Shown: positions 20,878-38,432 of the stretch, in pieces
Numbering within the stretch: position 1 is the first letter of the stretch
Layout: every line of letters begins with the position of its first letter
Assembly (NCBI GenBank): GCA_000002445.1
Contig: CM000208.1
Location: 2,272,001 to 2,336,000 of the forward strand
Reading direction: 5' to 3'
Length of the DNA: 64,000 bases
DNA from: Trypanosoma brucei
Taxonomy: Eukaryota
Position numbers and translations under genes: made by a program
The notes under the pieces: model-generated
What the model saw: only the letters and a program-made list of their open reading frames with translations
Database searches by the model: none
Told to the model about the DNA's origin: nothing

Positions 20878-22353
20878 ATGATATGCCGCACATCTTTTCT
20901 GCGTAAACCCAAGGTAGTTGTTGTTGGCACGGGATGGGCGGGCTGCTACTTTGTGAGAGACACAAAACCACAATTAGCAGAACTCCACGTTTTGTCCACA
21001 CGTAACCATCACGTACTGACACCCCTTCTCCCGCAAACAACCACCGGTACGCTGGAGTTCCGCTCTATATGTGAGCCCATCACTCGCATTCAACCGGCAC
21101 TCGCACACCTTCCGAACCGTTTCTCACGTTGCTTCGTGTATGACATCAACTTCGAACAAAAGCGGGTTGATTGCATTAGCGTAGACAACACCAGCGTCGG
21201 GCCACACGCCTTAGTTAACACATTTGATGTTCAGTACGACAAACTAGTGTTGGCGCATGGTGCACAGCCAAACACGTTTAATGTTCCCGGCGCTGTGGAG
21301 AGGGCGTGTTTCCTTCGGGAGGTAAATGAAGCACGTACCATCCGCAAACGACTTGTGCAGAATATCATGACGGCGAATTTGCCCGTAACAAGTGTCGAGG
21401 AGAAGAAACGCCTTCTGCACACCGTAGTTGTGGGAGGTGGGCCCACGGGCGTTGAATTCTCCGCAGATTTGGCCGAGTTCCTGCGCGACGACGTGAAGAA
21501 CATCAACCCCGAGCTCGTTCAATTCTGCAAAGTGACAGTACTTGAGGCCGGAGAGGTTTTCAGTACATTTGATTTACGCGTGAGGGAATGGGGCAAGCGG
21601 CGGTTAGATGCCCTCGGCGTGCGAATCGTGAAGGGTAATGTTGTGGCTGTGCAAGAGAAGGAGGTGATCACAAAGAGTGGTGAAGTGTTCTCTACCGGCT
21701 TGGTGGTGTGGAGCACAGGTGTCGGACCCTCACCACTAACAAAAGAATTAAAGGTGGACCGAACGCGACAGGGGCGTATTTCCGTCGATGAGCATTTACG
21801 GGTACTGCGCGACGGCGTCCCAATTCCCGATGTGTATGCAATTGGGGACTGTGCAACCAATGAAAGCAACCCGCTACCTACTTTAGCTGCTGTCGCTTCT
21901 CGTCAAGGCGTGTATCTGGCAAAAAAAATCAACGCGGAATTAGCTGGTAAGCCATTCGCCACGCCGTTCAAATATGAGAGCCTCGGAAGCATGGTGAGTC
22001 TTGGTACTTCCAGCGCTGTTGTGGAATTAAATGGGCCACGCAAACTTGATTTTGTTGGGCTTAAGGCACTCTTCTTCTGGCGTAGTGCATACCTCAGCAT
22101 TGTGGGTTCGTGGCGTAATAGGCTTTATGTCATTGTCAACTGGCTTGGAAGCGCAATTTTTGGCCGGGATTTGACACTCATTAACGACTACAATGACGAG
22201 CGGACGTGGCTCTCTCTGGCGTCAGAGGGGGCGGCGCGCGAGAAAGTGAGCAGAATGAACAAAGTTAAAACCGATGGCGACGGCAGTAATGGAAATGAAA
22301 CAACAGCCCGTTCAAAGGTGGACTTACCCGCGACAAAGAAACAGAACGAGTAG
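20878..22353 (+). CDS. NDH2: type II (alternative, rotenone-insensitive) NADH dehydrogenase
   Basis: Two dinucleotide-binding folds are present: KPKVVVVGTGWAGC and TVVVGGGPTGVEF. The 491-aa length matches my recollection of TbNDH2. Confidence 0.8.
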   Translation: MICRTSFLRKPKVVVVGTGWAGCYFVRDTKPQLAELHVLSTRNHHVLTPLLPQTTTGTLEFRSICEPITRIQPALAHLPNRFSRCFVYDINFEQKRVDCISVDNTSVGPHALVNTFDVQYDKLVLAHGAQPNTFNVPGAVERACFLREVNEARTIRKRLVQNIMTANLPVTSVEEKKRLLHTVVVGGGPTGVEFSADLAEFLRDDVKNINPELVQFCKVTVLEAGEVFSTFDLRVREWGKRRLDALGVRIVKGNVVAVQEKEVITKSGEVFSTGLVVWSTGVGPSPLTKELKVDRTRQGRISVDEHLRVLRDGVPIPDVYAIGDCATNESNPLPTLAAVASRQGVYLAKKINAELAGKPFATPFKYESLGSMVSLGTSSAVVELNGPRKLDFVGLKALFFWRSAYLSIVGSWRNRLYVIVNWLGSAIFGRDLTLINDYNDERTWLSLASEGAAREKVSRMNKVKTDGDGSNGNETTARSKVDLPATKKQNE

Positions 22354-22442
22354 GTGAAGTTTGTGTACCAAGCAACACAATTGACCTCCCTTCGATTCTC
22401 ACACCCACGTGGCCGCTGAACATACAATTAAGGACGTGTAAA

Positions 22443-22473
<31 letters not shown>

Positions 22474-25400
22474 TTTGTATATATGTTCTTAATTATGATG
22501 ATTTATTGATGTAACATCCGCGATAATTTTTTTTTGTTCGACTCTGTTTATTTCCGATTTTTTTTTCTTTTCTGCTCCCCGTTTTTTTTTTCCTGTGTAC
22601 TCGTTGTTTTGTTTTGTTTTTTTACCTCCAGAGGTTGATGGCCGCTGGCTTTAACGTGATACCCCCCCCTCCCCCTTCAACCCGCCGCGTACGCGTGGAT
22701 ATGCACCTAAACGTACAATTGAAGATGACACAAACACGTGCGTTTGCAATTTTGTGAATGAATGCGGTGAATGTTATTGTTTTTTTTTTGTATATTTGTA
22801 AGCGTGTGTAAGTGGGTGGGAAGGAGGAAGGTGGAAAAAAGTGTTTTTGGGGTGGGAGATGGAACACCTCCTATGTTACGGGATGTGAATATATAAATAA
22901 ATAAATAAATAAATAACGTTTTTAATTTATGCGAATGGAAGAACGAAGTGTGGTTTCATTCGCATGTGCGTGGGGGGAAAAGGAAGAAAAAAAAAAGAGA
23001 AGCGGGTGGGGGTTGGGGGAAATAAAATAAAATAAAAAGGGTAGGGAAGAGGTATTGTTACTTGGTTTCTGATAAAGGCGGAGAGGAAAGGGAACAAGTC
23101 AAACACATACAAAACAAAAGAATCATATGTTTGTGAAAAGTTGAGGAAAGTGACGGTCAGGCATTGGTTGATGAGTAAAGTCGACGTGTATGACACATGC
23201 GCACTCTCTCCTCATTTCACAAAATGAAAAAATATATATATACATTCTTTAAGGGGGTTTTCCTGAACCTTTTTGCCTCCTCTAAACACGCGCGGAAGAA
23301 GGAAGATTCAAACTCGAATAACTCAAGTGTGAAGAGAAAACAATAATAATTAAAGCATCTGGAGTGTGGGGGGGGGGAAGGAGGAAAACAAAGGAGAGGT
23401 GGAAGTCGCGGCATACTTCAGCACAAATGACTCTTTGAAACTTTATTTAGCTGTCGTTTATGATTTATTTTGTTTTTCTCTTTTACCGTTCATTATACTG
23501 GCGGTCGACTGAAATTCTAACCCAATAAATGAATACGCCACGCGACGAGAGAAATAACACTGAAAGAAGAGGGGAAACAAATGTGGCAACATGAAGGAGT
23601 CGAAGGAGACAAAATGACCAGCGTTTAATCAACCGTCACGACAAACTTGGCGCATCCGGTAGGTTTTCAACCTTTCGTCCTTTGCTGCTGCTGCTGTTGT
23701 TGTTGTTGTTGAGGGGATCCAAAAGGTCGTTGCAGTTCAGTGGTGGTAACTTCGTGTTGGATGGGTTTCACTCATCTTAAAGGAAAGCGGACGAAGGAAT
23801 AATAGCAAAGGGAAAAAAAAACAAAACAAAAGGAGCTAAGCTTATCACATTATTCACTGCTGAGTGGTAGGAGGGAGGTGGGAGAGAAAGAAAAACTGAA
23901 TGAAGAAGGTAATGTTCACATATTATTATTTATTTATTATTATTATTTTTTACAGAGAACTAATCATTGATAATGTATGTGTGTTTGTTTCCACTAGTTT
24001 TCCTGTTGTTGATGTTGTTTTAAGCAAAAAAAAAAAGGAGGCGGGAAACAAGCGCCGATGCCGCTACTGCTTTGGTGGCAGTGGGGTGCGGCAGTAGTGA
24101 TGGCAGCCCATTGATAAGTTACCGTTACGTAAAACATTTATTGCGTCCCTACAGCGCGAAAGTTTCCACACAAAAATAACGTCTCTCCTTCAGAGACCCT
24201 GTTAACTATGTACTCCACTCTGAAACAAAGAGTAATCGGTTCATGTGGCAGCATTCCCTTCTGTATTTCTAACACCACTACTTCATCTCTTTCACCTCTT
24301 TTAATTTCCAACACGCATTCAAGCCATGAGCTGGTACGACCCGAAAGTCTCGTAAGCAATGACAAAAAAAAGGATGAAATGGATGTGAACATGCATATAT
24401 TATTAAACAAATAAATATATGAGAGAGGTTGGTTGCACCAGCCTTTGGCACGTATTGAGCTGAAGAAAGCCTACCGAAGGGGGAGAGGACTGCAGCGAAC
24501 TGAATGGGGTGGGTCCAAACAATGAGAAGTGGTCGCGACGAGGACCCGTCAATTTGTTTGTTTGTTTTGTTTTGTTTTGTTTTTTTTGGTGGAGGGAGGA
24601 AGCGAATACGCCCGTAAAAAAGGTGTAATCTTATGAGCCTGCATTACTTTTTAGCCCGTGCAAAGGGGGTTTGTGGCGGGTTAGTGGACGGAAATGAAAC
24701 TGTTGCAGTGGCTCCTGCGCAGCTCTCCTTTCATCACCCGCTCCATTTAGCGGGTCATAGCTGTGTTTGTCGTAGCAAAGGGGTGATGCATGTTGGGGTA
24801 AACAATACAATATTTTGGTAGCGTTATACGCTGCTTTGTGTGGGGTGGCACAAATGCAAGTGTTGGTCTCTGTTCTCTTTACTAGAATAATATATGAAGG
24901 GAGCAAGTCAGTCAGCAAATTGCTGGGAATCCGTCGCTGCATCTCTGTCAATGGTTCCCACCACCGCCGTACTCCGAGACGGGGACCGCAGCTGATTGAC
25001 ACGTAGCCTTCAAGGAGTCTGTGACGGTTTTACTTGATGGGTGGAAGCCCTTTCCACTGAGGAGACTGCTGAGAATGTGAAATGCCCATTGGTGAGAAGT
25101 AATAGCGAGGAACCCACCGAGCCTCACAGTATCTGGGAAAGAAAATAACAGAAATAATTATGGTAAATGAAAACCGGGGAAGCTACCCGCCTTCGTCCCT
25201 TCCACAAACATATTAATAGCACATCGACTCATTCGTAAGAGATATTTTAATGCTGCTGGGCCAATGTTGGTGAAGTTAGAAGTGGTTTCCTTATCTTGGT
25301 GGCAGACGGGAAGAGGAATATTAGGGACATCCCGTCCCAGTCTTTTTCCACACTATTACCTTCTAAAATTGTGTTTGAACCTCCACAAAACCAAGAAGCT

Positions 25401-26550
25401 AACATCGTAATGGGGCATGCCACACGGTGGTGAGAGGAATTGTGTGTGGAAGGAGGCGGAGTTGGCCACGCCAAGGGGAAGGAAAGGGGGGAAGATTATA
25501 AGAGGCAAATAAAACATTACTTAAAAGTGACAGTCAATATCGAAACATGCAGAAAACGTTGTTAAGGGATTGTGTGTCCACAAGGTCATCCAATTGATCA
25601 ATCGTTGGGTAGCTCAAGGAGTTATTATGCTGATTTGGTTGAATACGAACCCCTCGAAAGGCTCAAACACTTCAGTTGGTTGAGAGGTTGCGCGCACAAA
25701 TCACCGTTCCAACAGGACTGCAGAAAGATGCATCAAGTGGAAAATAAAACAAAGAAGACTTAAACGGTGAGAAAGGCTGGCAAATGTGCCACTGCACGCT
25801 ACTCAATCTTGACTAACGGTACTTCCAAATTAAATGTATATCATGGAACGGGAGTCATTATATTTAGCAGGAAAGGCGATGTAACTGAATTCTACAAGGG
25901 TTTTAGTGGGTTGGCTTGTAGTTATCGTGAACAAAGGTGACGCGATGGAAATGAATTTCAAGGGGCTATTGAAAACGATGCGACACGAAGTAAATGTGGC
26001 CATGCTAAATATTTTCATATCACTTCCCCCTCGCCGCCGTAAAGGTAGAATTTTTTGCATCATGTGGAAATCCACCCTTAAAGTCACCAACCGTCAGGTG
26101 TTCGTCTTCATGCAGCACAGTTTTTCTTTATTTTTTTTTATATTTTTGTCTCGCTGCAACGGAGGGGATCACAGAAGTGAATATGTTGGAGTGCATCGCC
26201 CCAAGAATTTGGCAGCAAAACAGTGGTAGCACTTCAAATTTGGTTTTTTTGACTATATTCACGACTGGAATAATAACACTGGTAATATAAAAATACGGCA
26301 ACGAATAATCGGACGAAATTTTTTTTCGAAGTACCACGTAAACTGTACTTTGTGTGTGCCATCAAAACAGAAACAAATCGTTATTTAAAAAAAAATAAAA
26401 ATACTTTCGGATACCCAGTGACATGTCTATTATTTTTACTATTTTGTTTTATTTACCCTCTTATTTATTTGTGGTTTTGAAAAAAAAGAAATACTTTGTG
26501 CATAATCATACAGACACAGTACAGTTTAGAGGTTGGGTTGCTAAGATAAT

Positions 26551-26745
26551 ATGAAAAAAGGCAACCGTCGCGGCCGCTACCGAAAGAGACGAAGCTCGAG
26601 ATCGCCTTTATTTTGGGTTGCGTTGGCTGCATTGGTTTTGTTGACTTTGTCGACAGGGTTGAATGTATGGCTTGCTGTTGAGTACGCATCCAAGAAAAAG
26701 GTGGAAACCAATTTGGAGCTGGCCGAGAAGGCATGCGGATTATAG
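26551..26745 (+). CDS. small ORF (64 aa) with a basic N-terminus and one TM segment; speculative
   Basis: An ATG-initiated ORF, MKKGNRRGRYRKRRSSRSPLFWVALAALVLLTLSTGLNVW..., is the only support, and a chance ORF is possible. Confidence 0.15.
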   Translation: MKKGNRRGRYRKRRSSRSPLFWVALAALVLLTLSTGLNVWLAVEYASKKKVETNLELAEKACGL

Positions 26746-27096
26746 CGTTGCCATGCTAGGCAGGTACCAACCTTGTTCTCCCTGTGGTGATGCACATTTA
26801 TAATGGACTTTTTTTTTTAGTTGTTGTTGTTACATTGTCGGTACATGCGGAAGAAGGATTGTTAGTGAATTTCTTTGTGTGTTTATTTCTCACAGGCTGT
26901 TGCGGCAAAAGTATTAAATTCCTTCTATTGTGTGAACCTACAGGACAAAGGAGGAACAGGGATGGTTTGCTTTTAAAACGATGCCACCATTTTTCTTCTA
27001 TGTTGTGCACATATGCGTTGTTGAATAAAATGAAGTAAAGAGCCCGGCCGAGTGGAGTGGCGCGGTGTGGGAATACATAAAAATAATAATAAGAAC

Positions 27097-27849
27097 ATGA
27101 GCACCTTCGCGGTACTAAATGGTGTCATAATATTAGCGGTATTCGTTGTAACCGCTGCTTGCTTAGATGATCAAAAGCCTATAAGGGAGGGAGGGAAAGC
27201 GCTGAGTGGAGAGGCTGCAAAACATCTCTGCCGCATCAAACAGATAAGTGAATTGCTCGGAAGCCGTGCAGAGTTTGAGCTAATTAGGGACGGATCCAAG
27301 TTTACCAGCGAGCGACAAGTCCTTCGTAATGTCCAGGATAAAATAACGGAAGGGGTCAAAGGCATAAATGAGTTGTTCGGTAGGCACTGTCGGCGAGTGT
27401 CCTTGGGAATTGAAGGAGGTGGGAGCGACATGCTTTCCAACCCAAATTGCGAAGATAGCGATAAAAAAGAGGGAACGGGGGAAGCCACTGACCAAGGCAG
27501 TGGGACGCTGTCTGAAGAGGGTATTATCCAGTGCGAACACGGTAATTTTCTGCGTGATTTCCTAATTCGGGGTGCCCTCGAGGCATACAGAAGTCAAATG
27601 GAGCAGTGGGAAAAGAAAAAACCGACAGAAGGAAACAAAACGAGTACGGAGGTTAAAGGGGATGAATCGTCAAAAAAACACGAGGACCAATGCCAGCAGA
27701 TGGGATACAGCGTTCATGGGGCCTGCACCGTATCAGAGCAAAAATGGAGGCAACATCTGGAAGAGGCTGTGAAGCTCATGGAAGGCATAATTGTAGTGAA
27801 AAAGGAAGACGTTTGTGGGGTATCAAAAGAAGGGGAGACGCAAAAATAA
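27097..27849 (+). CDS. hypothetical secreted protein (about 250 aa, cleavable signal peptide, 8 Cys, highly charged)
   Basis: MSTFAVLNGVIILAVFVVTAACLDDQ looks like a signal peptide. A poly-Y tract (about 26976-26998) followed by AG lies upstream. It is the only sizeable ATG ORF in an 8.7-kb gene-poor stretch. No family assigned. Confidence 0.4.
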   Translation: MSTFAVLNGVIILAVFVVTAACLDDQKPIREGGKALSGEAAKHLCRIKQISELLGSRAEFELIRDGSKFTSERQVLRNVQDKITEGVKGINELFGRHCRRVSLGIEGGGSDMLSNPNCEDSDKKEGTGEATDQGSGTLSEEGIIQCEHGNFLRDFLIRGALEAYRSQMEQWEKKKPTEGNKTSTEVKGDESSKKHEDQCQQMGYSVHGACTVSEQKWRQHLEEAVKLMEGIIVVKKEDVCGVSKEGETQK

Positions 27850-30800
27850 ATGCGGGTGACAGTGGAAGGCAATGGGGAAGTGGGGTGTAGGGAATGCCTT
27901 TTGTTTTCATTTCTTTCTTTGGGGTCCGTTGGTATCGGTAGCTGCAGGCATATAGTTGCTTGAAAGTGTGCGAGGGTAACTGCGGACGTATATGTAAATA
28001 TGCACAAATTTGTGCTTTTTCTTATTCCGGGTATTTAGGTGTGAATTATGTGTTCCCTGGAGGTAGAGTGTCATCCATATGCGTGCCCTTTGGTAGGACA
28101 CGATCTAAGATAAGGTGTATTGCGTTGGTATTCGTGATTTTTGAAGTGAGTTTCCACCGGAAAGTGTGCGTTTGTACTTAACTATTATGTCCCCCTTCTC
28201 CTTTGTTAAGGTAAGGGGGTTGAATGAACTCTGAAGCGTAAGTGTGCAGAAGTTGGCCGGAGCTCATCGGCCGTTAGGGTGCATTGACGTTTAGAAGATA
28301 AGAGGAATGAGAGCAGCGATTAAATCTTGTGCATCAACAAAAGTCAGATATCATGTGTGAGAGGGCGTGATGCAGGGAGGCAACACTAAGTTTCCGCAAA
28401 GTAATATCGGGGGCAATTCTGTAGTGTTGGTGCAGACTCCGCATTGAATCGAGAATCGGCAAATTGGGGATAGCGGTTCGGTTACCTCCCGTGGTTAGGT
28501 TAGGTGAGGAAAAGCGAAGAGGGGAAATGCACTGAATTGGGGGGCGGGAGCTGGTGACGCCTCAACGATCTTAATGCATAGCGTGACCCCTGTGTACCAA
28601 GCCGTGACGTAAGAGGACGTCATGCATTCGCAAAAGAACGAAAGCAGTTATGGCGTGTGGTGGGGGAAACGCGTACGGGTTTGAACGTGATGCCAGAGTT
28701 TTGGGTCAATACAAGGGGAACACACCAACGAGGGCAACAAGAACTGCTGCAACACGTGGTGAAGCGCAAGACAAGTACCACACCTTCCTTTTCACAGATG
28801 GGTGTGTGGATTGTAGCCCTCTCCCTGCAAGAAAGTAAGGTGCACCACACGAATTACCGATGTTGGTCGAGTTGACGCTTTTCCTCCCCGCCAGTTGAAA
28901 CGGGGGAGAGCAGGGTAGCCCGGGGGGCATTGGATCCCTCCAAATGATGGAGATAGCCTCGCTTTGTGTAGGGCTGAAATCTGAAGGCAAGCACAAATAC
29001 GCTTAGCATGTAAGTGGATCCGCACTCACGAGTGCCTGGGAATGGCATAACCGGATGACGCACAGGCAATCGATGTGAGGAGCAAGGAGGGGAGATGTTG
29101 CCGCCAACGAAGATTACCGGTCTTGAATACACAAGGGTCGTGAATGATAGGGTGCAAACGAAAGGATTGGGAGAGAGAAGATTAGTTGTGCTTCGTTCCC
29201 GGGGGGGAAAAGCAGTCAAGGAATAGGGTATAATTGAATGTAGGAAACCTGCTTCCTGTCGTGAAAGGGGAAATCAATGACCGCAGGAAATTATCCTATC
29301 CGCAGTAAATCGTATTGGTGCATGTTAACAGTTCCAAGGAAAGAAGTGAGGAGGACCTGGTTTTGCCTCACAAGAGCACTTTTTGGAGGGAGCTACACCA
29401 CGCAAAACGACAATTTTGAGCAGTTTTGGGGGGTAAGGAGACTTGATTTGGGGAGGCGGAGGAGAGGAGTCTAATGTTCATTTAGCAGCGGTGGGCCGGT
29501 GAAGAACGGAATTGTGTATGAACGGACCGCAAGTGGTAAAGTTTCCAGAAAGCGATGGAAGTAAGTGCTAATGGTCGGGACGGCCCTCGGAAGCAGCACC
29601 AGGAGCAAAAGGAAGGGGGAAAAGATGCCGAAATATTTATTGTTACATTGAAAATGGTGCACTTTATGTCGTACATTTCTGTTGTGAACAAAACCGTAAG
29701 AATAAACAAACATAACTTTATCCTGATCCCAACCGAACGAAAGAGTAAGGGAAAGGGAGATGTGTTTAAGATCAACTTCTTTTTCCATCGGTTGCTAAAT
29801 GCGTCGCCAGAGGTTTTGTTCATAAATCCCGTCTTTTGAGCATCGATGACGCCGTCGGAAGACGGCTTTTATGAAGTACCGCCTCCTCGTAGGCGACACT
29901 TGTCTTCTCCCATTCATTGCTGGTAGTTAAAATATTCATACTTGCCTAAAAGTTCTGCATCGTATGCACAATCTTAACACCATCCAACATCATACATTTG
30001 GGCGTATTTGCGCGTATCTTCACTTATATATTCCAGCAGCTCCTCTTGCCGTGACCCCTTCCTCCGAATCGTGTCTTCGTGCCGGCAATAAGTAGTATTG
30101 CGTTGGCTAAAAGCATCGCATCTGTGGTCAAATATTTAAAATGTGTGTAGTACATTGGAGGTGTACTGTGTGTTTTTCCCTTCGGACATGCAACCTGGAT
30201 TCAAAAATGCAGAGAAAACGTCGTTCGGTATTATATTCACGCACATTGGCAACTAATTCGTTTATTTTCGTTGCTGTAGGGTAACAAATGTCGCCAGGGG
30301 TCTCCGAAGCAAGGTGGTGAAGTGGACAAGGGTTCACCGGTTCCGTCCACAATTTTCTGGATAATGCGAGTGTTAATGAAAGGACGGAAGGGGACACAGT
30401 TAAAAATGACGACACCCAAGTAAAAAGTAACAGCGGTCATATCCCGCGAGTTTGTGACGCAGTTGCGGCGGCCAAGCTTTTCTCCGCGTAGTGTAGGGCG
30501 CCTACCGCTGGGATACTCGATTGTATCCGTGCCTACGTTGGTTTTGATAGGGTGCCGTGAACATGTGCCGACATAGACTTGGATTTACAAAAATATGCAG
30601 CGTGTTGGTGTTTGCGAGGGTACTGCAACACTGGTGCTTGATGGGGTTAGGTGTTGTTTTTTTTTTTTTGCGCAACCAGACAGAAAAAAAGAGGTCGTAG
30701 AATATGAACGGAGATTCGAGTGCGCCAAGAGTACTCAATTAATCTGGCACCATGCAGGGGAAGATCACGCCAACGACGCTTTATGCGGCTGGAAAATTTT

Positions 30801-31110
30801 TTCTACGTCTCAGATGGAAGTTGTGGCAAAACGGGGAAGTAAAAGACGGGGGATTGTAAGAGGTGGATGAAAATGGGCAAAAAGAAAACTCGCTAAGCAA
30901 TTCGCGCACAGCTGTAAGCCACGTGAGGGATGCATGACCTGGGAGGGTTACATTTAAATCTTCGAGGATAAATAGCCCGTATGGGCGGTAGAAGAAAGTA
31001 GGGATATACTGACATCTAAAAGCAGGACTACGACTGTTAGCGTCACCAACCTCCGGGACGCTATGTATGTGAGGGAGATTGATCGGTAGTGGAGAGTGTA
31101 CGGGTTTGTT

Positions 31111-31440
31111 ATGAAGCGAAAAATTATGAGCCTTGACTACGAAACTCGGTATTTTCATTATCCTTATGGAAAGGTGATCAAAAGGGGTGCCATACTACAT
31201 TTTGCGGGGTCGAGTAACGTGTGGAAGGAGACAATACCCAGGTACCTCAGCGAGATGAGTTGGTTCAAAGCTCTAAAAAATTCTTTCACAGAACGAGAGG
31301 CTTACAGGCGGCTGCTAGAAACAACTTCCGTTGAAATACACTCTGCAAGGGGTGCCTTTAGGTATGTAAAGCTCGGTACTGTGTGCCCCATCTCTAACGT
31401 TTCAAACCCAAATTGGTTATCTGGGGAGTTGAGAAAGTAA
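31111..31440 (+). pseudogene. truncated leading copy of the glycosyltransferase-like array gene; only the last about 105 codons are present
   Basis: From about 31127 to 31440 the sequence is identical to the 3' end of the full copies (KIMSLDYETRYFHYPYGKVIKRG...NPNWLSGELRK*). The identical downstream spacer follows. The sequence upstream of 31127 is unique, so this is the array boundary. Confidence 0.65.
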
Positions 31441-31536
31441 TGCATACGGTCAATCTGCATTGAAGATTACACCCGTAATCCGCGGCACATCGCATCGCAC
31501 TCTCTTATCCCTTACATACTCATTGCAGAAACTGAC

Positions 31537-31555
31537 GTTTTATTTTTGTTTTCAG
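31537..31555 (+). promoter_or_regulatory. poly-pyrimidine tract plus AG, a putative trans-splice acceptor 3 nt upstream of the array-gene ATG; repeated identically at 32828-32846 and 34119-34137
   Basis: gttttatttttgttttcag directly precedes gaaATG in copies 1-3. Copy 4 has gttttatttcatttttag before aaagATG. Confidence 0.5.
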
Positions 31556-31558
31556 GAA

Positions 31559-32731
31559 ATGTTGAGGAGGATCAAGGGTATTTCAACTCGTAAAAAGGGA
31601 GGGAGATTATATTTAATAGTGATTGCGCTGCTGATAGTGGTCGGGGTTATGGCGACAATGGATATAAGAAGTAGTCATACGGAAACCGGTCACGGGTTGA
31701 GAAAAGAAAATTTCCACAGTAGTTATGCACCAAGGATTAGTTATGTTGTGGTGCAAAACAGACCCTCCCCAGGGTGGTGTAGAATGCTCTTAAGCTCTAT
31801 ACTCACCAATGTGTCGGTGCTTACGTTGGGTGTGGAGGGTAAGTACGGGCATGTAAGAAGATGGACCTGGATATATAATTATGTATGGCGGGGAGAAGCG
31901 CGTGAGAGCGATGTGATTGTGATATTCGATGGGGGAGACACTTTTTTCACAGAAACACATTTAAGAGAAGATGCCATGAAGTATTTTCTGGCAACAACGC
32001 CTAGCACGCCTGAAAAGTTCAATGAAACAGAAATCATACAGGGAGCTATGACACCTCCAATGCTCTTCACGGCAGAGGTGTATTGCGCTATGCCACAGAT
32101 TGATATAATGGTAAAGCATCCAAGGAATACACCGCCTGGGAAGTGCAGGAGGTTCTACGAGCGAGCATTTGAGGCGTCCACCCGAACAGGGACAAGGGCG
32201 ATTCTGAGGGCAAATGAATCTGGAAGGTCGTATCTCAATGGCGGAGGAGTAATTGCAAGAGTATGGGCTCTGAGAGAGGCTCTGGAGGCATTCTTCCGCT
32301 TAAAAAAGCAAAGTTTTTTTTGGGGCTGTGATCAAACTATGTGGGCATTTGTGTTTTTGTGGAGTGTAACTAGACCAAGTAACGTGAAACCGAAGTTGTT
32401 TCTGAGAAGGGGAATTATGAGCCTTGACTACGAAACTCGGTATTTTCATTATCCTTATGGAAAGGTGATCAAAAGGGGTGCCATACTACATTTTGCGGGG
32501 TCGAGTAACGTGTGGAAGGAGACAATACCCAGGTACCTCAGCGAGATGAGTTGGTTCAAAGCTCTAAAAAATTCTTTCACAGAACGAGAGGCTTACAGGC
32601 GGCTGCTAGAAACAACTTCCGTTGAAATACACTCTGCAAGGGGTGCCTTTAGGTATGTAAAGCTCGGTACTGTGTGCCCCATCTCTAACGTTTCAAACCC
32701 AAATTGGTTATCTGGGGAGTTGAGAAAGTAA
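31559..32731 (+). CDS. type-II membrane protein with a PLOD/LH3-N-terminal-like GT-A glycosyltransferase domain (array copy 1, 390 aa)
   Basis: Short basic cytosolic tail (MLRRIKGISTRKKGGR) and a TM segment (LYLIVIALLIVVGVMATM) precede a luminal domain. Several blocks align with the lysyl-hydroxylase N-terminal GT domain: YVVVQNRP...LTLG (VITVAT...RTLG), DVIVIFDGGDTFF (MIIMFVDSYDVI), MLFTAEVYC (LLFSAESFC), YLNGGGVIARV (FLNSGGFIGFA), CDQTMWAFVFL (DDQLFYTRLYL). ORF-track start is TTG at 31460; the first ATG is at 31559. Confidence 0.8.
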   Translation: MLRRIKGISTRKKGGRLYLIVIALLIVVGVMATMDIRSSHTETGHGLRKENFHSSYAPRISYVVVQNRPSPGWCRMLLSSILTNVSVLTLGVEGKYGHVRRWTWIYNYVWRGEARESDVIVIFDGGDTFFTETHLREDAMKYFLATTPSTPEKFNETEIIQGAMTPPMLFTAEVYCAMPQIDIMVKHPRNTPPGKCRRFYERAFEASTRTGTRAILRANESGRSYLNGGGVIARVWALREALEAFFRLKKQSFFWGCDQTMWAFVFLWSVTRPSNVKPKLFLRRGIMSLDYETRYFHYPYGKVIKRGAILHFAGSSNVWKETIPRYLSEMSWFKALKNSFTEREAYRRLLETTSVEIHSARGAFRYVKLGTVCPISNVSNPNWLSGELRK

Positions 32732-32849
32732 TGCATACGGTCAATCTGCATTGAAGATTACACCCGTAATCCGCGGCACATCGCATCGCACTCTCTTATC
32801 CCTTACATACTCATTGCAGAAACTGACGTTTTATTTTTGTTTTCAGGAA

Positions 32850-34022
32850 ATGTTGAGGAGGATCAAGGGTATTTCAACTCGTAAAAAGGGAGGGAGATTA
32901 TATTTAATAGTGATTGCGCTGCTGATAGTGGTCGGGGTTATGGCGACAATGGATATAAGAAGTAGTCATACGGAAACCGGTCACGGGTTGAGAAAAGAAA
33001 ATTTCCACAGTAGTTATGCACCAAGGATTAGTTATGTTGTGGTGCAAAACAGACCCTCCCCAGGGTGGTGTAGAATGCTCTTAAGCTCTATACTCACCAA
33101 TGTGTCGGTGGTTACGTTGGGTATGGGAGGATGGTATGGTAACGTAAGAAGATGGACCTGGATATATAATTATGTATGGCGGGGAGAAGCGCGTGAGAGC
33201 GATGTGATTGTGATATTCGATGGGGGAGACACTTTTTTCACAGAAACACATTTAAGAGAAGATGCCATGAAGTATTTTCTGGCAACAACGCCTAGCACGC
33301 CTGAAAAGTTCAATGAAACAGAAATCATACAGGGAGCTATGACACCTCCAATGCTCTTCACGGCAGAGGTGTATTGCGCTATGCCAGATATTGATATAAT
33401 GGTAAAGCATCCAAGGAATACACCGCCTGGGAAGTGCAGGAGGTTCTACGAGCGAGCATTTGAGGCGTCCACCCGAACAGGGACAAGGGCGATTCTGAGG
33501 ATGAATGAATCCGGCAGGTCGTATCTCAATGGCGGAGGAGTAATTGCAAGAGTGTGGGCTCTGAGAGAGGCTCTGGAGGCATTCTTCCGCTTAAAAAAGC
33601 AGTGGTTTATATGGCGTTGTGATCAAACTATGTGGGCATTTGTGTTTTTGTGGAGTGTAACTAGACCAAGTAACGTGAAACCGAAGTTGTTTCTGAGAAG
33701 GGGAATTATGAGCCTTGACTACGAAACTCGGTATTTTCATTATCCTTATGGAAAGGTGATCAAAAGGGGTGCCATACTACATTTTGCGGGGTCGAGTAAC
33801 GTGTGGAAGGAGACAATACCCAGGTACCTCAGCGAGATGAGTTGGTTCAAAGCTCTAAAAAATTCTTTCACAGAACGAGAGGCTTACAGGCGGCTGCTAG
33901 AAACAACTTCCGTTGAAATACACTCTGCAAGGGGTGCCTTTAGGTATGTAAAGCTCGGTACTGTGTGCCCCATCTCTAACGTTTCAAACCCAAATTGGTT
34001 ATCTGGGGAGTTGAGAAAGTAA
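32850..34022 (+). CDS. glycosyltransferase-like array copy 2 (390 aa), about 97% identical to copy 1 at the protein level
   Basis: Same architecture as copy 1. Differences from copy 1 are confined to short patches (LTLGVEGKYGH vs VTLGMGGWYGN, PQIDIM vs PDIDIM, RANESG vs RMNESG, KKQSFFWGCDQ vs KKQWFIWRCDQ). Confidence 0.8.
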   Translation: MLRRIKGISTRKKGGRLYLIVIALLIVVGVMATMDIRSSHTETGHGLRKENFHSSYAPRISYVVVQNRPSPGWCRMLLSSILTNVSVVTLGMGGWYGNVRRWTWIYNYVWRGEARESDVIVIFDGGDTFFTETHLREDAMKYFLATTPSTPEKFNETEIIQGAMTPPMLFTAEVYCAMPDIDIMVKHPRNTPPGKCRRFYERAFEASTRTGTRAILRMNESGRSYLNGGGVIARVWALREALEAFFRLKKQWFIWRCDQTMWAFVFLWSVTRPSNVKPKLFLRRGIMSLDYETRYFHYPYGKVIKRGAILHFAGSSNVWKETIPRYLSEMSWFKALKNSFTEREAYRRLLETTSVEIHSARGAFRYVKLGTVCPISNVSNPNWLSGELRK

Positions 34023-34140
34023 TGCATACGGTCAATCTGCATTGAAGATTACACCCGTAATCCGCGGCACATCGCATCGCACTCTCTTATCCCTTACATA
34101 CTCATTGCAGAAACTGACGTTTTATTTTTGTTTTCAGGAA

Positions 34141-35319
34141 ATGGCGAAGGGAGGGAAAAGGGTAGTTGCTCGTAAAAAGGGAGGGAGATTATATTTAATA
34201 GTGATTGCGCTGCTGATAGTGGTCGGGGTTATGGCGACAATGGATATAAGAAGTAGCCATACGGAAACCGGTCACGGGTTGAGAAAAGAAAATTTCCACA
34301 GTAATTATGCACCAAGGGTTAGTTATGTTGTGGTGCAAACGAGACGCTCCCCAGGGTGGTGTAGAATGCTCTTAAGCTCTATACTCACCAACGTAAGCGT
34401 CACAACAGTTGGAATGGGCGCAGTGTACATTCATGCGTGGAGATGGACCTGGATATATAATTATATGCTACGGGAGAGGATGCATGAAGACGATGTGATT
34501 GTGATATTCGATGGGGGAGACACTTTTTTCACAGAAACACATTTAAGAGAAGATGCCATGAAGTATTTTCTGGCAACAACGCCTAGCACGCCTGAAAAGT
34601 TCAATGAAACAGAAATCTTACAGGGAGCTATGACACCTCCAATGCTCTTCACGGCAGAAAAAGGCTGCTACGCGCCGCAAATGTATATCATGACGGGTGT
34701 CGATCCCAGTAAAATACCTCAACGGGAAAGATGTTTAAATGTGTATGAAGAGGCATTTGAGGCGTCTACTCTGGCAGGGACGCAGGCTATTTTGCGGAAG
34801 CACGAATCTGGAAGGTGGCATCTCAATGGCGGAGGAGTAATTGCAAGAGTGTGGGCTCTGAGAGAGGCCCTAGATGTTTTCTTCGCGCTCAAAAGGCAGA
34901 GTTACAAATGGTGGTGTGATCAAAGTATGTGGTCATTGATTTTAGCGTGGAGTGTCAGCAGACCAAAGCACGTGAAACCGGTGTTGCTTCTGAGAAGGGG
35001 AATTATGAGCCTTGACTACGAAACTCGGTATTTTCATTATCCTCATACAACGCCGATTAGGACAGGAGTGATCCTACATTTTCCAATGCCGATCGTTTTG
35101 TGGAAAAACAAAATGGCAAAATACGTTGGTGAGACGACATGGTTTAGGGCTTTGCGAGATTCCGAAGGAAGACAGAAGACAGTGGCAGATTACTTAAAGA
35201 CCGTTTATGTGGATATTCGCTTCGTCTTTGGGTTCAAAAAGTGGAGGAAGTTTAGCAGCGTGTGCAGCATAAGCGATGTTGTGAACCCAAACTGGCTAAG
35301 TGGTGTGTTGAGAAAGTAA
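34141..35319 (+). CDS. glycosyltransferase-like array copy 3 (392 aa), a mosaic with an identical 5' end and a diverged middle and 3' end
   Basis: The spacer and the 5'UTR-proximal sequence are identical to copies 1 and 2 (ATG at 34141). The catalytic core is conserved (VIVIFDGGDTFF, LFTAE, LNGGGVIARVWALREAL, WWCDQSMW) and the C-terminal 80 aa are diverged. Confidence 0.75.
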   Translation: MAKGGKRVVARKKGGRLYLIVIALLIVVGVMATMDIRSSHTETGHGLRKENFHSNYAPRVSYVVVQTRRSPGWCRMLLSSILTNVSVTTVGMGAVYIHAWRWTWIYNYMLRERMHEDDVIVIFDGGDTFFTETHLREDAMKYFLATTPSTPEKFNETEILQGAMTPPMLFTAEKGCYAPQMYIMTGVDPSKIPQRERCLNVYEEAFEASTLAGTQAILRKHESGRWHLNGGGVIARVWALREALDVFFALKRQSYKWWCDQSMWSLILAWSVSRPKHVKPVLLLRRGIMSLDYETRYFHYPHTTPIRTGVILHFPMPIVLWKNKMAKYVGETTWFRALRDSEGRQKTVADYLKTVYVDIRFVFGFKKWRKFSSVCSISDVVNPNWLSGVLRK

Positions 35320-35443
35320 CACCAGCGCTTGACCTGTACCATAATATCATGCCCCCTATACGCTGCGTGTCGGCACGCCATTCACCAGGATGTATGAATA
35401 CACTGTGTGTGGAAATCCGTGTTTTATTTCATTTTTAGAAAAG

Positions 35444-36625
35444 ATGAAAGGAACTAAGAAATTTTATGGTAAAAGAAGGAAGAGAACGTGTGTAATAGGT
35501 GCGGCACTTCTGCTTATCTTTTTACTTTGTCGCATGCTGTTTATCCGGACGGAAGAAGTGGAAGACACCACGTTTGAGGAGGGTTGTTGGGAGCGTGAGA
35601 TGCGCAGCGAAGGAGTGGGAGATGTAAAGGTGCGTTACGTCGTGATACAGACGAAGCCCTCCCCAGGTTGGTGTAGAATGCTTGTAAGCTCTCTCGTTGT
35701 TGGTATTGATGTAATTACAATAGGACTCGATGGCGTGTACCATCACACCTCGAGGCCACATTGGTTGCTGAACTACATAGAAAGTGCGGGGTTAAGTGAT
35801 GACGATGTGATTGTGACATTTGATGGTGCGGACACAGTATTTGTGAACAAGCATAACCTCCAGTGCGCTATTAGCAAGTTCATATCAACGACACCGAGCA
35901 AACCAGAAAATTTCGATGAGGAAAAAATACTGAAAGGCGTCCAAAAGTCTCCACTCCTGTTTACTGCTGAAAGGGGGTGTTTTGCCTCTCAACTAAGCGT
36001 TTTGTTTTCAATAAGAGGCAGAAAACACGAAAAGAGGTGTGAGCGGTTCTATAGGGGGGAGATTTCAAAGGCCAAAGCAACCGGCGCGGAACGGGTGATG
36101 CGGATGCCAAAGAGTGGGCGGGCGTATCTTAATGCTGGTGGGGTGATCGGGAGGGTGTGGGCATTTAAGGAAGCAATAGGAGGATTTTCAAAACTTAGAG
36201 AAAAGAGTGACAGATGGTGGTGTGATCAGACAATTTGGACCATTCTCTTTGCCTGGAGCGTCAATCAACAGGACACTGGGGGTAAAGCAGTGCACTTGAG
36301 AAAGGGTCTGATTTCTCTAGACTACGATGCGAGGTATTTTCTCATTCCTTCGTACACTTCCCCAATTCGAAGCATGATATTGCATTTTTCCGGGCTTATT
36401 AGAGACTGGAAGTGGTGGTTTCCAGGTGTTGTGAGGAGGTTGGTATGGATACAGAGAATGAGAGATGATGTGTATCAGAGAGACAGTAGGAGTTTGCTAA
36501 CTAAGACCAGCTTAACGATCTACGGCGCTAAAGGAGAAAAATATATTCGTAAGTTTGCCGATGTTTGCAACGTTGATGAGGCCGTGGACTACACGTGGCT
36601 GTCGACGGTCCGAAGTAAGCATTAG
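35444..36625 (+). CDS. glycosyltransferase-like array copy 4 (about 393 aa), the most diverged paralogue
   Basis: The start is chosen by analogy with the other copies: the ATG right after poly-Y/AG gives MKGTKKFYGKRRKRT plus a TM segment (CVIGAALLLIFLLC). The ORF track begins at an upstream ATG at 35390. Family blocks are conserved: YVVIQTKPSPGWCRMLVSS, VIVTFDGADTVF, LLFTAERGC, YLNAGGVIGRVWAF, WWCDQTIW. Confidence 0.7.
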   Translation: MKGTKKFYGKRRKRTCVIGAALLLIFLLCRMLFIRTEEVEDTTFEEGCWEREMRSEGVGDVKVRYVVIQTKPSPGWCRMLVSSLVVGIDVITIGLDGVYHHTSRPHWLLNYIESAGLSDDDVIVTFDGADTVFVNKHNLQCAISKFISTTPSKPENFDEEKILKGVQKSPLLFTAERGCFASQLSVLFSIRGRKHEKRCERFYRGEISKAKATGAERVMRMPKSGRAYLNAGGVIGRVWAFKEAIGGFSKLREKSDRWWCDQTIWTILFAWSVNQQDTGGKAVHLRKGLISLDYDARYFLIPSYTSPIRSMILHFSGLIRDWKWWFPGVVRRLVWIQRMRDDVYQRDSRSLLTKTSLTIYGAKGEKYIRKFADVCNVDEAVDYTWLSTVRSKH

Positions 36626-38432
36626 ATACTACAGGTCAGCGTGAGACCGGCTGTTTCTACGGATGTGTGTACACAGGATTTTATACGTTGTGGGTTGCCG
36701 TCCACTCCGCGGCAAATCACCTTAGGTGCCACTGTTGACATCAAAAGGTTTTTCGAAGACAGTCTTTAAAAATTTATGTAAATTCGCTCCCTGCAATCGC
36801 GAGTTGGCGTTGTTTTGTAAACACGTGGATCCGCGTAAACGAAAAAAAAACAGCGATCCCAGTGTCGTTGGGATCTTCTACTGATGCCTGCAACGATGTG
36901 GCCACCGAAAAATAAAGGTAACCGTTTTTTTTTTTTAGCACCGTACTCGTTCGCTATTTACGGATGAAAATGAGGGGGAGTAGTGGGTATGTAGATTTCG
37001 AATGCCGTATCGTGGTGTTATTGGTGACTTTCTGTAAAACAAGCAGTTCAAAGGGGGAGTGTGATTATTATCGTCAAACTTTTAGATGAGAGCTTGCATT
37101 CAAGGCGCGTGTTGTGGCAGAAAACACGGGCTGCTCCCTGAGGTAGTGCAAGCCGTGTGCTCGTATAACGCCATCCGGTGCAGTGGTGGTTGGTGTGGTG
37201 GTGTTCCGCGACACCGACATGTCGGGAGGTGTCTGTGAGATTGAGGGGTTTATGTGGGAATATGATATCGTAGCAATGTTTTATGGCGCAGACACGTCTT
37301 TAGCGCAGGCCGAGTTTGTGGAGGAAGAGACACACCTTTGCGAATAGCTCACCAAAAATTAAAATGACAAACACATGGCGAGAGTCATTTTGCTTGGAAC
37401 AATGTTCCCCTCAATAATTTTCCGATCGAGAGGGGATGTTACCTCCTACGGATGTATGTCATGCTAGTGGTGTAGAACAAAAGTTCACAGTGGTACGAAA
37501 GTGTGTGAATATACGAGACTGGATGAGTGGGAAGGAGCTTATGGAGGGCTCGTCACGGTTGGGCTGCAGAATGCATGCCCAAACGGCATCGGTAAAAGTG
37601 GAAGAGTTTAAACGCTCAGAGAACCCTTTAAATCACTTTGTCAACGCCAGGATGGAGAACTTCAACTGATGGTGCGGCTACTATATAAGCGCTGGCGTTT
37701 CCGTACAATGTGACAGAGTACGTATTCGGGGAGGCGTTTACTCCCTCTCTACGGGGACCCATGTCCCTTAACTACAACTTCCAATGGTTTGGCAACGCCA
37801 CACTCAAAACAAACCTCACTTCCACTATTGCCCATTCGGGGTGAGATAATTGGGAGGGTGAGCTTGCCGATGACTGGGAGACTGTCATTGTGGTACCGAC
37901 AACTTGAACCACCGGAGAGGTGACAGTGAACGAAGGAGCATTCACTTTCGGAGCCTTTAGTGGCACAACGTAAGGAGAGAAAGTGCCTTCGAACAACCTC
38001 GGTGACGTGCGTCGAATCAATAGGACGGTGAAATATAAATGGCTAATGAGACCATTTAAGTGAAGTTAGCTGACGCCAGCACCATGTGTTTGCATTTATT
38101 TCACCGTGGCGTGCCTCGTATTTCTCCGCAATGAAGTTGGGTAGACATCTTCACCATTGTTGAGGACGTGGTATGCATCTATTGAATAGTGGATCTTGTC
38201 CCTAAAAACTGCCGAAACGTGGACGAAGAGCTCTCATAAAAAGGATTTCGATTTTACGCTGCTGTGCGTGAGTCAGGATAAAGAGGTGGCGTGATTTTAA
38301 TTGGTTCCATTGGAAATGCCTGTGATTTAGAGGAGTTCTTAGTGAAATCTCGAGCGCGCACAATAGTGATAAAACGAAAAAGAGGGATGTGAGGGGGAGG
38401 GCGTGCCGGTCATATAAAGGATATTCCAAACT

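What the first reader, a model, noticed from the sequence alone, without database searches (positions are those of the whole stretch)
22354..31110. 8.7-kb gene-poor stretch upstream of the array inside an otherwise dense polycistron
Elsewhere in the window CDSs recur every 1.5-3 kb. Between the NDH2 stop (22353) and the array there is no ORF longer than about 260 aa on either strand. Apart from microsatellites ((TA)n 22453-22480, (AAAT)n 22893-22916, (CTG)n/(GTT)n 23686-23712, (GTTTT)n 24558-24580) the sequence is not low-complexity, especially at 28.2-31.0 kb. Candidates are a long UTR, a lncRNA, snoRNA genes, decayed genes, or a region where the ancestral gene order was disrupted when the array was acquired.
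Basis: seen in the sequence. Interest (0 to 1): 0.5.

Follow-up and report, generated by a model that had tools for sequence, protein, structure and literature searches.

The report
ISG-like gene plus decayed ESAG3 spacer
The "empty" 8.7 kb in this Trypanosoma brucei chromosome 10 window is ordinary, already annotated lineage-specific spacer: it holds one small bloodstream-stage surface-protein-like gene and a decayed copy of the neighbouring ESAG3 array gene, and the rest is non-coding sequence in which I found no recognisable element.

Summary

The stretch is not empty:
[quoted passage not shown] It matches Pfam ISG65-75, has coding-like codon usage, and shows pN/pS of about 0.2. It is reported 27-fold up in bloodstream forms.
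- **Decayed ESAG3 copy.** About 30274-31437 is a frameshifted ESAG3 pseudogene, the degenerate first unit of the ESAG3 array.
- **The remainder.** 22.4-26.8 kb and 27.85-30.27 kb gave no protein-family, Rfam, tRNA, repeat or cross-species match. It carries several polypyrimidine/AG processing signals, so it is read as UTR or unannotated non-coding transcript.

Synteny shows the ancestral neighbour of NDH2 is a tyrosine phosphatase (T. cruzi, T. melophagium, L. major). That gene is absent here with no detectable relic. The 22.4-48.4 kb interval is therefore a T. brucei-specific island at a synteny break.

snoRNA, retroelement and hidden long-ORF readings are not supported. Two published bloodstream-specific lncRNAs may map here, but I could not anchor their coordinates. 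Interest is low.

The parts
22354..22526 (+). NDH2 3' trailer, with an A12 run and (TA)n at 22440-22484. This is a candidate proximal polyadenylation zone.
   Evidence: Sequence read; TRF. Assigning it as a poly(A) zone is inference from its position upstream of the polypyrimidine tract.
22527..22631 (+). 103-nt polypyrimidine tract followed by the first AG at 22630-22631. It is the strongest trans-splice-acceptor-like signal in the region, 175-275 nt after the NDH2 stop.
   Evidence: Polypyrimidine scan score 44, the highest between 20 and 49 kb; sequence. Use as a splice site is inferred, not shown.
22632..26807 (+). About 4.2 kb of ORF-free, T. brucei-specific non-coding sequence with microsatellites and further PPT/AG signals (first AG at 24593, 26163, 26487). 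It is read as a long UTR and/or unannotated non-coding transcript(s).
   Evidence: No Pfam hit in six-frame segments. No Rfam, tRNA or repeat match. No phosphatase relic. No DNA similarity to other species. The 107-aa + ORF at 25906-26229 is frameshifted in T. b. gambiense. 22354-24600 is indel-rich between strains.
26808..27096 (+). T10 tract plus AG (26819-26820) and the ~276-nt candidate 5' UTR of the ISG-like gene.
   Evidence: The splice-site assignment is inferred.
27097..27849 (+). [quoted passage not shown] It has an N-terminal signal-like hydrophobic segment, 8 Cys, and no C-terminal TM or GPI-type hydrophobic segment.
   Evidence: Pfam ISG65-75 at 41.7 bits against a 25.1 cut-off. 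100% identical to XP_823168. Codon score 0.208, within the range of real CDSs. pN/pS 0.2. Profile hit to ISG65 PDB chains at E about 0.002. 27-fold up in bloodstream forms (PMC10048164 Table S6).
27850..30273 (+). About 2.4 kb of complex, ORF-free sequence after the ISG-like stop, with PPT/AG signals at 27897-27941 and 28190-28210. It is read as the ISG-like 3' UTR and/or a separate non-coding transcript.
   Evidence: No Pfam, Rfam or repeat hits. The 121-aa minus-strand ORF 28854-29219 is frameshifted in two other strains. Divergence from T. b. gambiense is 0.6-1.0% with few indels.
30274..31437 (+). Decayed ESAG3 copy (psi-ESAG3, 'unit 0'). The N-terminal two thirds are frameshifted and about 30% identical. 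The C-terminal third (31108-31437) is 97% identical to copy 1. Homology is detected from 30523; the 5' limit of 30274 is extrapolated.
   Evidence: Colinear ESAG3-profile hits in three successive frames: 30523-30684 (model positions 84-134), 30668-30796 (131-173), 30831-30983 (187-234) and 31108-31437 (280-389, E 2e-48). The spacing is 914 bp against 915 bp expected.
31559..36625 (+). Context: four intact ESAG3-like genes forming the array (Tb927.10.9460 and following).
   Evidence: sources name them ESAG / ESAG3-like. PMC4288722 and PMC3957582 call Tb927.10.9460/9470/9480 putative ESAG3.

Best explanation
The window is T. b. brucei TREU927-type chromosome 10. The 8.7 kb after NDH2 is the left part of a T. 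brucei-lineage-specific island (about 22.4-48.4 kb) that sits where the ancestral NDH2-to-tyrosine-phosphatase adjacency was lost. The stretch has five parts. (1) The NDH2 trailer, followed by a very strong polypyrimidine/AG signal. (2) About 4.2 kb of non-coding, partly low-complexity sequence. (3) One small intact gene, Tb927.10.9450, a truncated ISG65/75-family protein with a signal sequence but no membrane anchor, expressed mainly in bloodstream forms. (4) About 2.4 kb of non-coding trailer. (5) A decayed ESAG3 copy that is the degenerate first unit of the ESAG3 array. How it most likely works: the stretch is transcribed by read-through Pol II as part of the polycistron. Coupled trans-splicing and polyadenylation at the PPT/AG sites cut it into one mRNA (ISG-like) plus long UTRs or non-coding by-product RNAs. 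Stage regulation would then be post-transcriptional. Shown here: the ORF inventory, the gene's identity, the pseudogene, the synteny, and the absence of other recognisable elements. Inferred: which PPT/AG sites are used, the UTR extents, and the transcription and regulation mode.
For: Identity and annotation: the ISG-like ORF is 100% identical to XP_823168 (Tb10.6k15.0940), and Tb927.10.9450 is named 'invariant surface glycoprotein, putative'. Coding status: Pfam ISG65-75 above the gathering score; ORF length P about 0.003 and codon score 0.208 against 0.08-0.30 for conserved CDSs; intact in four strains, with 3 non-synonymous and 4 synonymous changes against T. b. gambiense (pN/pS 0.2, compared with 0.16 pooled for housekeeping neighbours). 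Expression: 27-fold up in bloodstream forms by nanopore direct RNA sequencing (PMC10048164 Table S6). psi-ESAG3: colinear frameshifted profile hits with exact spacing. Nothing else found: six-frame Pfam scan, Rfam at gathering score and at E<=1, tRNA (63), repeats (7, 64), other ISG-like or ESAG3 relics (53, 60). Synteny. NDH2 to ADH is 26.0 kb here against 8.9 kb in T. cruzi. PPT/AG signals.
Against: 24.6-30.3 kb diverges somewhat less from T. b. gambiense (0.90%, about 5 gap openings in 5.7 kb) than the upstream intergenic spacers do (1.42%, 8 gap openings in 3.0 kb). That could mean some constraint, or merely fewer slippage-prone repeats. Minus-strand stop-free segments of 100 codons or more are in excess (12 against 5.5 expected), although their codon scores are at or below zero and one of the longest is frameshifted in other strains. 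DNA-level comparison with ingi/RIME/DIRE consensus sequences and with the rest of the T. brucei genome was not possible with these tools.
Confidence: 0.75

Rival explanations
1. One or both non-coding blocks (22.6-26.8 kb, 27.9-30.3 kb) encode discrete, stable, bloodstream-specific lncRNAs. One candidate is the published nanopore locus nt_4823.1 (Tb927_10_v5.1:2334878-2336931, +, 2054 nt, 24-fold up in bloodstream forms). Such RNAs might act on the adjacent surface-gene island.
For: Kruse & Goringer list two novel intergenic + strand lncRNAs on chromosome 10, at 2.335 and 2.350 Mb. Both are strongly up in bloodstream forms, as are Tb927.10.9450.9465 and .9510. From gene-number interpolation, which is my own rough estimate, NDH2 lies near 2.32-2.33 Mb. 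The PPT/AG geometry allows a placement at 28039-30092 together with 42686-43189. Several PPT/AG signals flank ORF-free blocks of about 2 kb.
Against: I could not anchor the window to v5.1 coordinates. The geometric test gave several equally valid placements, some outside this region. There is no Rfam match, no divergent homologues and therefore no covariation test, and no evidence of function.
Confidence: 0.35
2. The ORF-free 4.7 kb after NDH2 is the decayed remnant of the ancestral downstream genes (the tyrosine phosphatase and the hypothetical genes seen in T. cruzi).
For: In T. cruzi, T. melophagium and L. major a Y_phosphatase gene lies 2.2-2.7 kb downstream of NDH2. It is missing at this position in T. 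brucei.
Against: A profile HMM of the three phosphatases searched with all filters off against the six-frame window gave nothing better than E=3, and those hits lie outside the region. tblastn at E<=5 gave only scattered chance hits. There is no Y_phosphatase Pfam hit and no DNA similarity to the other species' downstream regions.
Confidence: 0.05
3. The stretch hosts snoRNA or other small structured RNA genes.
For: Trypanosome snoRNA clusters do sit in inter-CDS regions of polycistrons (general knowledge).
Against: There is no Rfam hit at gathering score in the whole window, and none at E<=1 with permissive filters in 22354-31110. There are no tandem or dispersed repeats of the kind snoRNA clusters form and no tRNAs.
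Confidence: 0.04
4. The complex sequence at 28.2-31.0 kb is a degenerate retroelement (ingi/RIME/DIRE) or another dispersed repeat.
For: Retroelements are frequent at synteny breaks and next to ESAG3 pseudogenes in T. brucei (general knowledge, not tested here).
Against: No reverse-transcriptase or endonuclease Pfam hit appears in any stop-free segment of 45 aa or more on either strand. There is no internal repeat and no copy elsewhere in the 64-kb window. The 30.3-31.4 kb part is explained by psi-ESAG3.
Confidence: 0.07

Closest known systems
ISG65/ISG75 invariant surface glycoproteins of T. brucei (Pfam PF11727)
   Same: N-terminal signal-like segment. Pfam ISG65-75 match above the gathering score. 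The conserved N-terminal 'G-K-L..E.A..LC..K' motif and the C-terminal 'W..KP...C...CT.SE..W' motif align to ISG65 PDB chains 7pi6_A and 8ovb_C. Up-regulated in bloodstream forms (PMC10048164).
   Different: Only 250 aa, with no transmembrane helix and no cytoplasmic tail. It is very divergent: the only non-orthologous relative found among 1.84 billion representatives is Tb927.2.1600, at 27% identity and E 7e-4. It is single-copy and sits in a chromosome-internal housekeeping polycistron.
ESAG3 / ESAG3-related genes and pseudogenes
   Same: 30.27-31.44 kb matches an ESAG3 profile colinearly and abuts four intact ESAG3-like genes.
   Different: This copy has frameshifts and in-frame stops. Only its last 110 codons are kept homogeneous with copy 1 (97% identity).
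Intergenic lncRNA loci of T. brucei (Guegan et al. 2022, PMC9200285; Kruse & Goringer 2023, PMC10048164)
   Same: ORF-free blocks of about 2-4 kb bounded by PPT/AG signals inside a Pol II polycistron, next to stage-regulated genes.
Lineage-specific surface-gene islands at synteny breaks in the TriTryp genomes (comparative genome papers of 2005; recalled, not re-read here)
   Same: Conserved flanks (NDH2 on the left, ADH and the LRR protein on the right) enclose species-specific content made of surface-family genes and pseudogenes.
   Different: No retroelement or structural RNA was detected in this island.

Membership tests
ISG65/75 family (for ORF 27097-27849) | Sequence match to the family ectodomain profile (Pfam PF11727) above the curated cut-off | tested here: met
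   41.7 bits against a 25.1 cut-off, E 1.1e-10; residues 101-244 match profile positions 150-268 of 281. A profile of the ORF and its paralogue hits ISG65 PDB chains at E about 0.002.
ISG65/75 family (for ORF 27097-27849) | N-terminal signal peptide | tested here: met
   The only strongly hydrophobic 19-residue windows start at residues 3-5 (Kyte-Doolittle 2.4-2.6). No dedicated signal-peptide predictor was available.
ISG65/75 family (for ORF 27097-27849) | Single C-terminal transmembrane helix plus a short lysine-containing cytoplasmic tail (type I membrane topology) | tested here: not met
   There is no hydrophobic segment after the signal sequence. The ORF ends ...VVKKEDVCGVSKEGETQK only 6 residues after the Pfam match. 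No continuation was found in other frames downstream.
ISG65/75 family (for ORF 27097-27849) | Elongated helical-bundle ectodomain fold | tested here: inconclusive
   The AlphaFold2 model built from a 6-sequence alignment has mean pLDDT 37.6. It predicts long helices but is not trustworthy, so no fold search was run.
ISG65/75 family (for ORF 27097-27849) | Bloodstream-stage expression | tested here: met
   From the literature only: Tb927.10.9450 is 27.25-fold higher in bloodstream than procyclic forms, adjusted p 5e-13 (PMC10048164 Table S6).
ESAG3 family (for 30274-31437) | Colinear similarity to an ESAG3 profile over most of its length | tested here: met
   Model positions 84-389 of 389 are covered by four colinear hits with the expected spacing. 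The strongest has E 2e-48; the three weak ones are individually non-significant (E 0.008, 2.5, 2).
ESAG3 family (for 30274-31437) | Intact open reading frame of about 390 aa | tested here: not met
   The hits lie in three different frames with in-frame stops, so this is a pseudogene.
snoRNA / known structured RNA | Covariance-model match to an Rfam family | tested here: not met
   0 hits at gathering score and 0 hits at E<=1.
ingi/RIME/DIRE retroelements | Reverse-transcriptase or endonuclease coding remnants, or similarity to the element consensus | tested here: inconclusive
   There are no RT or endonuclease Pfam hits. Comparison with the consensus DNA was not possible with these tools.
Trypanosome lncRNA locus | A discrete trans-spliced, polyadenylated transcript lacking coding potential | not testable with these tools
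   Lack of coding potential is shown. Transcript existence could not be tested, and the published candidate nt_4823.1 could not be anchored to the window.

The most novel reading that the evidence does not exclude
The ~2.4-kb block between the ISG-like gene and psi-ESAG3 (and/or the 4.2-kb block upstream) produces a discrete bloodstream-specific lncRNA, possibly the published nt_4823.1. This RNA would be functionally coupled to the co-regulated, T. brucei-specific ISG-like/ESAG3 island, for example by controlling its stage-specific expression inside an otherwise constitutive Pol II polycistron.
Probability: 0.08. Interest if true: 0.45.

Novelty: already known. Interest (0 to 1): 0.15.

Why it matters
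It matters little beyond annotation hygiene. The stretch is part of the reference T. brucei genome, and its one gene is already annotated and has published expression data.

What this check adds:
- The "gap" lies at a synteny break where the ancestral NDH2-phosphatase adjacency was replaced by a T. brucei-specific island of surface-family genes.
- The ESAG3 array is flanked on both sides by decayed copies, which is evidence of birth-and-death turnover.
- The ISG-like gene lacks a membrane anchor, so it may be a secreted ISG relative.

If the non-coding blocks prove to be the published bloodstream-specific lncRNAs, the locus would be a compact place to study stage-specific regulation inside a constitutive polycistron.

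Tried and rejected
1. **Six-frame Pfam scan, both strands.** All 104 stop-free segments of 45 aa or more were scanned. Only ISG65-75 was significant. DUF4234 at E 5.5e-4 is a hydrophobic chance hit once 104 tests are allowed for. My first attempts to submit whole frames failed on stop codons or length.
2. **Rfam, tRNA and repeats.** Rfam at gathering score and at E<=1, the tRNA scan, TRF, direct and inverted repeats, and a self-BLASTN all gave nothing beyond microsatellites.
3. **Relic of the ancestral phosphatase or the T. cruzi hypothetical genes.** Profile HMM and tblastn were both negative.
4. **Further ISG-like relics, or a frameshifted C-terminal TM continuation.** None found.
5. **Segmental duplication from the paralogue locus on chromosome 2 (Tb927.2.1600).** No DNA similarity.
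6. **Conserved NDH2 3' UTR across species.** No DNA similarity.
7. **Anchoring the window to Tb927_10_v5.1, to place lncRNAs nt_4823.1 and nt_4829.2.**
   - The TREU927 assembly is not in the gene-position index.
   - No paper text or supplement gave coordinates.
   - A PPT/AG geometry test was not unique.
8. **Logan contigs carrying NDH2.** All three end inside the (TA)n tract, which is an assembly break, so they say nothing about the poly(A) site.
9. **Small ORFs.** 25906-26229 (+) and 28854-29219 (-) are frameshifted in other strains. 29555-29839 (+) has a coding-like codon score (0.148) but shows no substitutions between strains, so it is uninformative.
10. **Structure prediction of the ISG-like protein.** pLDDT was 37.6, so no fold search was run.

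Full report
**Source of the window.** The window is Trypanosoma brucei chromosome 10.
- The NDH2 protein (20878-22353) is identical to that of a T. equiperdum contig and 99% identical to T. b. gambiense DAL972.
- The 250-aa and 200-aa ORFs at 27097-27849 and 39626-40228 are identical to TREU927 proteins XP_823168 (Tb10.6k15.0940) and EAN78346 (Tb10.6k15.0880).
- All long ORFs lie on the + strand, as expected for one polycistron.

**The observation.** Between 22354 and 31110 the only ORF of 150 aa or more is 27052-27849 (+). It is 265 aa from GTG, 250 aa from the ATG at 27097, and 271 codons stop to stop. Nothing else exceeds 140 codons.
- CDS spacing is 4743 bp from NDH2 to the ISG-like ATG, and 3709 bp from its stop to the first intact array gene. 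The six conserved upstream genes are 254-1053 bp apart.
- So the stretch really is ORF-poor. It is not gene-free, however, and the polycistron is not otherwise dense: 40.3-48.3 kb is a second such stretch.

**The ORF is a real gene.**
- It matches Pfam ISG65-75 at 41.7 bits, against a cut-off of 25.1.
- Its length is improbable for this composition (P about 0.003). Its codon-usage score of 0.208 lies within the 0.08-0.30 range of the window's conserved CDSs, while other ORFs in the region score about zero or below.
- It is intact in TREU927, T. b. gambiense and two T. equiperdum assemblies. Against T. b. gambiense it has 3 non-synonymous and 4 synonymous changes (pN/pS 0.2), compared with 0.16 pooled for five housekeeping neighbours. 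The counts are small.
- Sources name it "T. brucei spp.-specific protein" or "invariant surface glycoprotein". [quoted passage not shown]
- An exhaustive HMMER search of 1.84 billion representatives found only its own orthologue cluster and Tb927.2.1600 (310 aa, 27% identity, E 7e-4).
- A profile of these sequences hits ISG65 chains 7pi6_A and 8ovb_C at E about 0.002, through conserved N- and C-terminal motifs.
- It has an N-terminal hydrophobic segment but no C-terminal transmembrane or GPI-type segment, and no continuation in another frame. It is therefore an anchor-less ISG relative.
- The AlphaFold2 model was too poor to use (pLDDT 37.6).

**The right end is a decayed array unit.** The array genes are ESAG3-like (PMC4288722 and PMC3957582). 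I built an HMM from the four window copies plus seven database relatives and searched the six-frame translation. It gave a colinear chain of hits:

| Window coordinates | Model positions | Frame | E-value |
|---|---|---|---|
| 30523-30684 | 84-134 | 0 | 0.008 |
| 30668-30796 | 131-173 | 1 | 2.5 |
| 30831-30983 | 187-234 | 2 | 2 |
| 31108-31437 | 280-389 | 0 | 2e-48 |

- From position 84 to 389 the genomic span is 914 bp, against 915 bp expected.
- Conserved motifs survive (TWIY..., DG, G.MTP, LN.GG.IAR), interrupted by stops and frameshifts.
- About 30274-31437 is therefore an ESAG3 pseudogene whose last 110 codons are 97% identical to copy 1.
- A second decayed copy lies after the array, at 37252-37632 and 37752-37856.

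**The remaining ~6.6 kb (22.4-26.8 and 27.85-30.27 kb).**
- No Pfam family other than ISG65-75 matched any of the 104 stop-free segments of 45 aa or more on either strand. That excludes reverse transcriptase, endonuclease, phosphatase and cyclase domains.
- There was no Rfam match even at E<=1, no tRNA, and no repeats beyond the microsatellites.
- There were no further ISG-like or ESAG3 relics.
- There was no DNA similarity to the paralogue's locus or to the NDH2-downstream regions of T. cruzi, T. melophagium, T. vivax or L. major.
- Two of the longer small ORFs are frameshifted in other strains.
- On the + strand a 103-nt polypyrimidine tract (22527-22629) is followed by AG only 175-275 nt after the NDH2 stop. 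Further PPT/AG signals have their first AG at 24593, 26163, 26487, 26819, 27940, 28209 and 30678.
- By the established coupling of trans-splicing and polyadenylation in trypanosomes, this predicts one mRNA (ISG-like) plus long UTRs or ORF-less processed RNAs. Which sites are actually used is inferred, not shown.
- Divergence from T. b. gambiense is 0.69% in upstream CDSs, 1.42% in upstream intergenic spacers and 1.10% across the region. 22.35-24.6 kb is indel-rich. 24.6-30.3 kb shows 0.90% divergence with few indels. That is a weak and ambiguous hint of constraint.

**Evolutionary context.** Upstream of NDH2 the gene order (UBX, methyltransferase, KH/SF1, SPS2, BCS1, PRPP synthetase) is conserved in T. 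vivax, T. cruzi, T. melophagium and L. major.
- Downstream, the last three species have a Y_phosphatase gene 2.2-2.7 kb after NDH2. T. vivax has a strand switch there.
- In T. cruzi a zinc-ADH and an LRR protein follow. These match window 48376-49380 and 49781-53029.
- NDH2 to ADH is 8.9 kb in T. cruzi and 26.0 kb here.
- No phosphatase relic is detectable.
- The interval 22.4-48.4 kb is thus a T. brucei-specific island containing the ISG-like gene, ESAG3 genes and pseudogenes, a T. brucei-specific 200-aa ORF and ORF-free sequence. It sits at a synteny break.

**Possible lncRNAs.** Kruse & Goringer list two novel intergenic + strand lncRNAs on chromosome 10: nt_4823.1 (2334878-2336931, 24-fold up in bloodstream forms) and nt_4829.2 (2349525-2350028, 54-fold up).
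- Their neighbourhood and co-regulation with Tb927.10.9450, .9465 and .9510 make it plausible that one lies in this stretch.
- I could not anchor the window to v5.1 coordinates.
- A PPT/AG geometry test allowed 28039-30092 together with 42686-43189, but it also allowed other placements. This remains a lead only.

**Verdict.** This is ordinary, already annotated lineage-specific spacer: one small ISG-family gene, one ESAG3 pseudogene, and UTR or non-coding sequence. The snoRNA, retroelement-coding, ancestral-gene-relic and hidden long-ORF readings are not supported. Interest is low.

Noticed in passing
window 40300-48375: A second ORF-poor stretch of about 8 kb (no ORF over 200 aa) with a different composition: GC about 0.50-0.55, negative GC and AT skew, and many polypyrimidine tracts on the + strand. 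No Pfam hit appeared in 119 stop-free segments from 36.6-48.4 kb.
   Followed up: partly
window 37252-37632 and 37752-37856: A second decayed ESAG3 copy lies just downstream of the array (profile E 2.8e-4 and 9.8e-3, colinear). The array is therefore flanked by pseudogenised units on both sides.
   Followed up: partly
window 31460-36625; L014 5789-8721: ESAG3 array copy number varies. The window has four intact copies (copies 1 and 2 are 97.6% identical, copy 3 is 69% and copy 4 is 36% identical to copy 1). T. b. gambiense has only two plus the 109-aa fragment. A T. evansi paper (PMC4288722) reports that Tb927.10.9460/9470 are missing in STIB805.
   Followed up: partly
window 31460-35319: The spacers between ESAG3 copies 1-3 are only about 100-120 bp and stay open in frame. 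That is why ORF listing reports 423-425-aa TTG-start ORFs that nearly abut each other. These spacers are unusually short for trans-splicing and polyadenylation signals.
   Followed up: no
L006 11417-14627 (T. vivax), L007/L012/L013: In T. vivax the polycistron ends right after NDH2, with convergent minus-strand genes from 13137. T. cruzi, T. melophagium and L. major instead keep a tyrosine phosphatase as the next gene. The NDH2-to-next-gene spacer is the longest in each of these loci (2.2-2.7 kb).
   Followed up: partly
window 22354-31110, minus strand: There is an excess of stop-free segments of 100 codons or more on the minus strand (12 observed against 5.5 +/- 2.2 in Markov simulations, P about 0.007). 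Their codon scores are non-coding. The likely cause is the purine-rich + strand and local composition, but this is not fully explained.
   Followed up: partly
window 29301-30270: This is the least diverged non-coding sub-interval: 0.62% against T. b. gambiense, 0 differences against T. equiperdum OVI, and no indels. It includes a 94-aa + ORF (29555-29839) with a coding-like codon score (0.148) and no substitutions to test.
   Followed up: partly
window 39626-40228: This 200-aa ORF is identical to Tb10.6k15.0880, a 'T. brucei spp.-specific protein' with no Pfam domain. It may be Tb927.10.9510, reported 18-fold up in bloodstream forms, but that ID mapping is unverified.
   Followed up: partly
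L003-L005 (Logan contigs carrying NDH2): All three short contigs end exactly 110 nt after the NDH2 stop, inside the (TA)n tract. This is an assembly break at low complexity, not evidence for a poly(A) site.
   Followed up: yes
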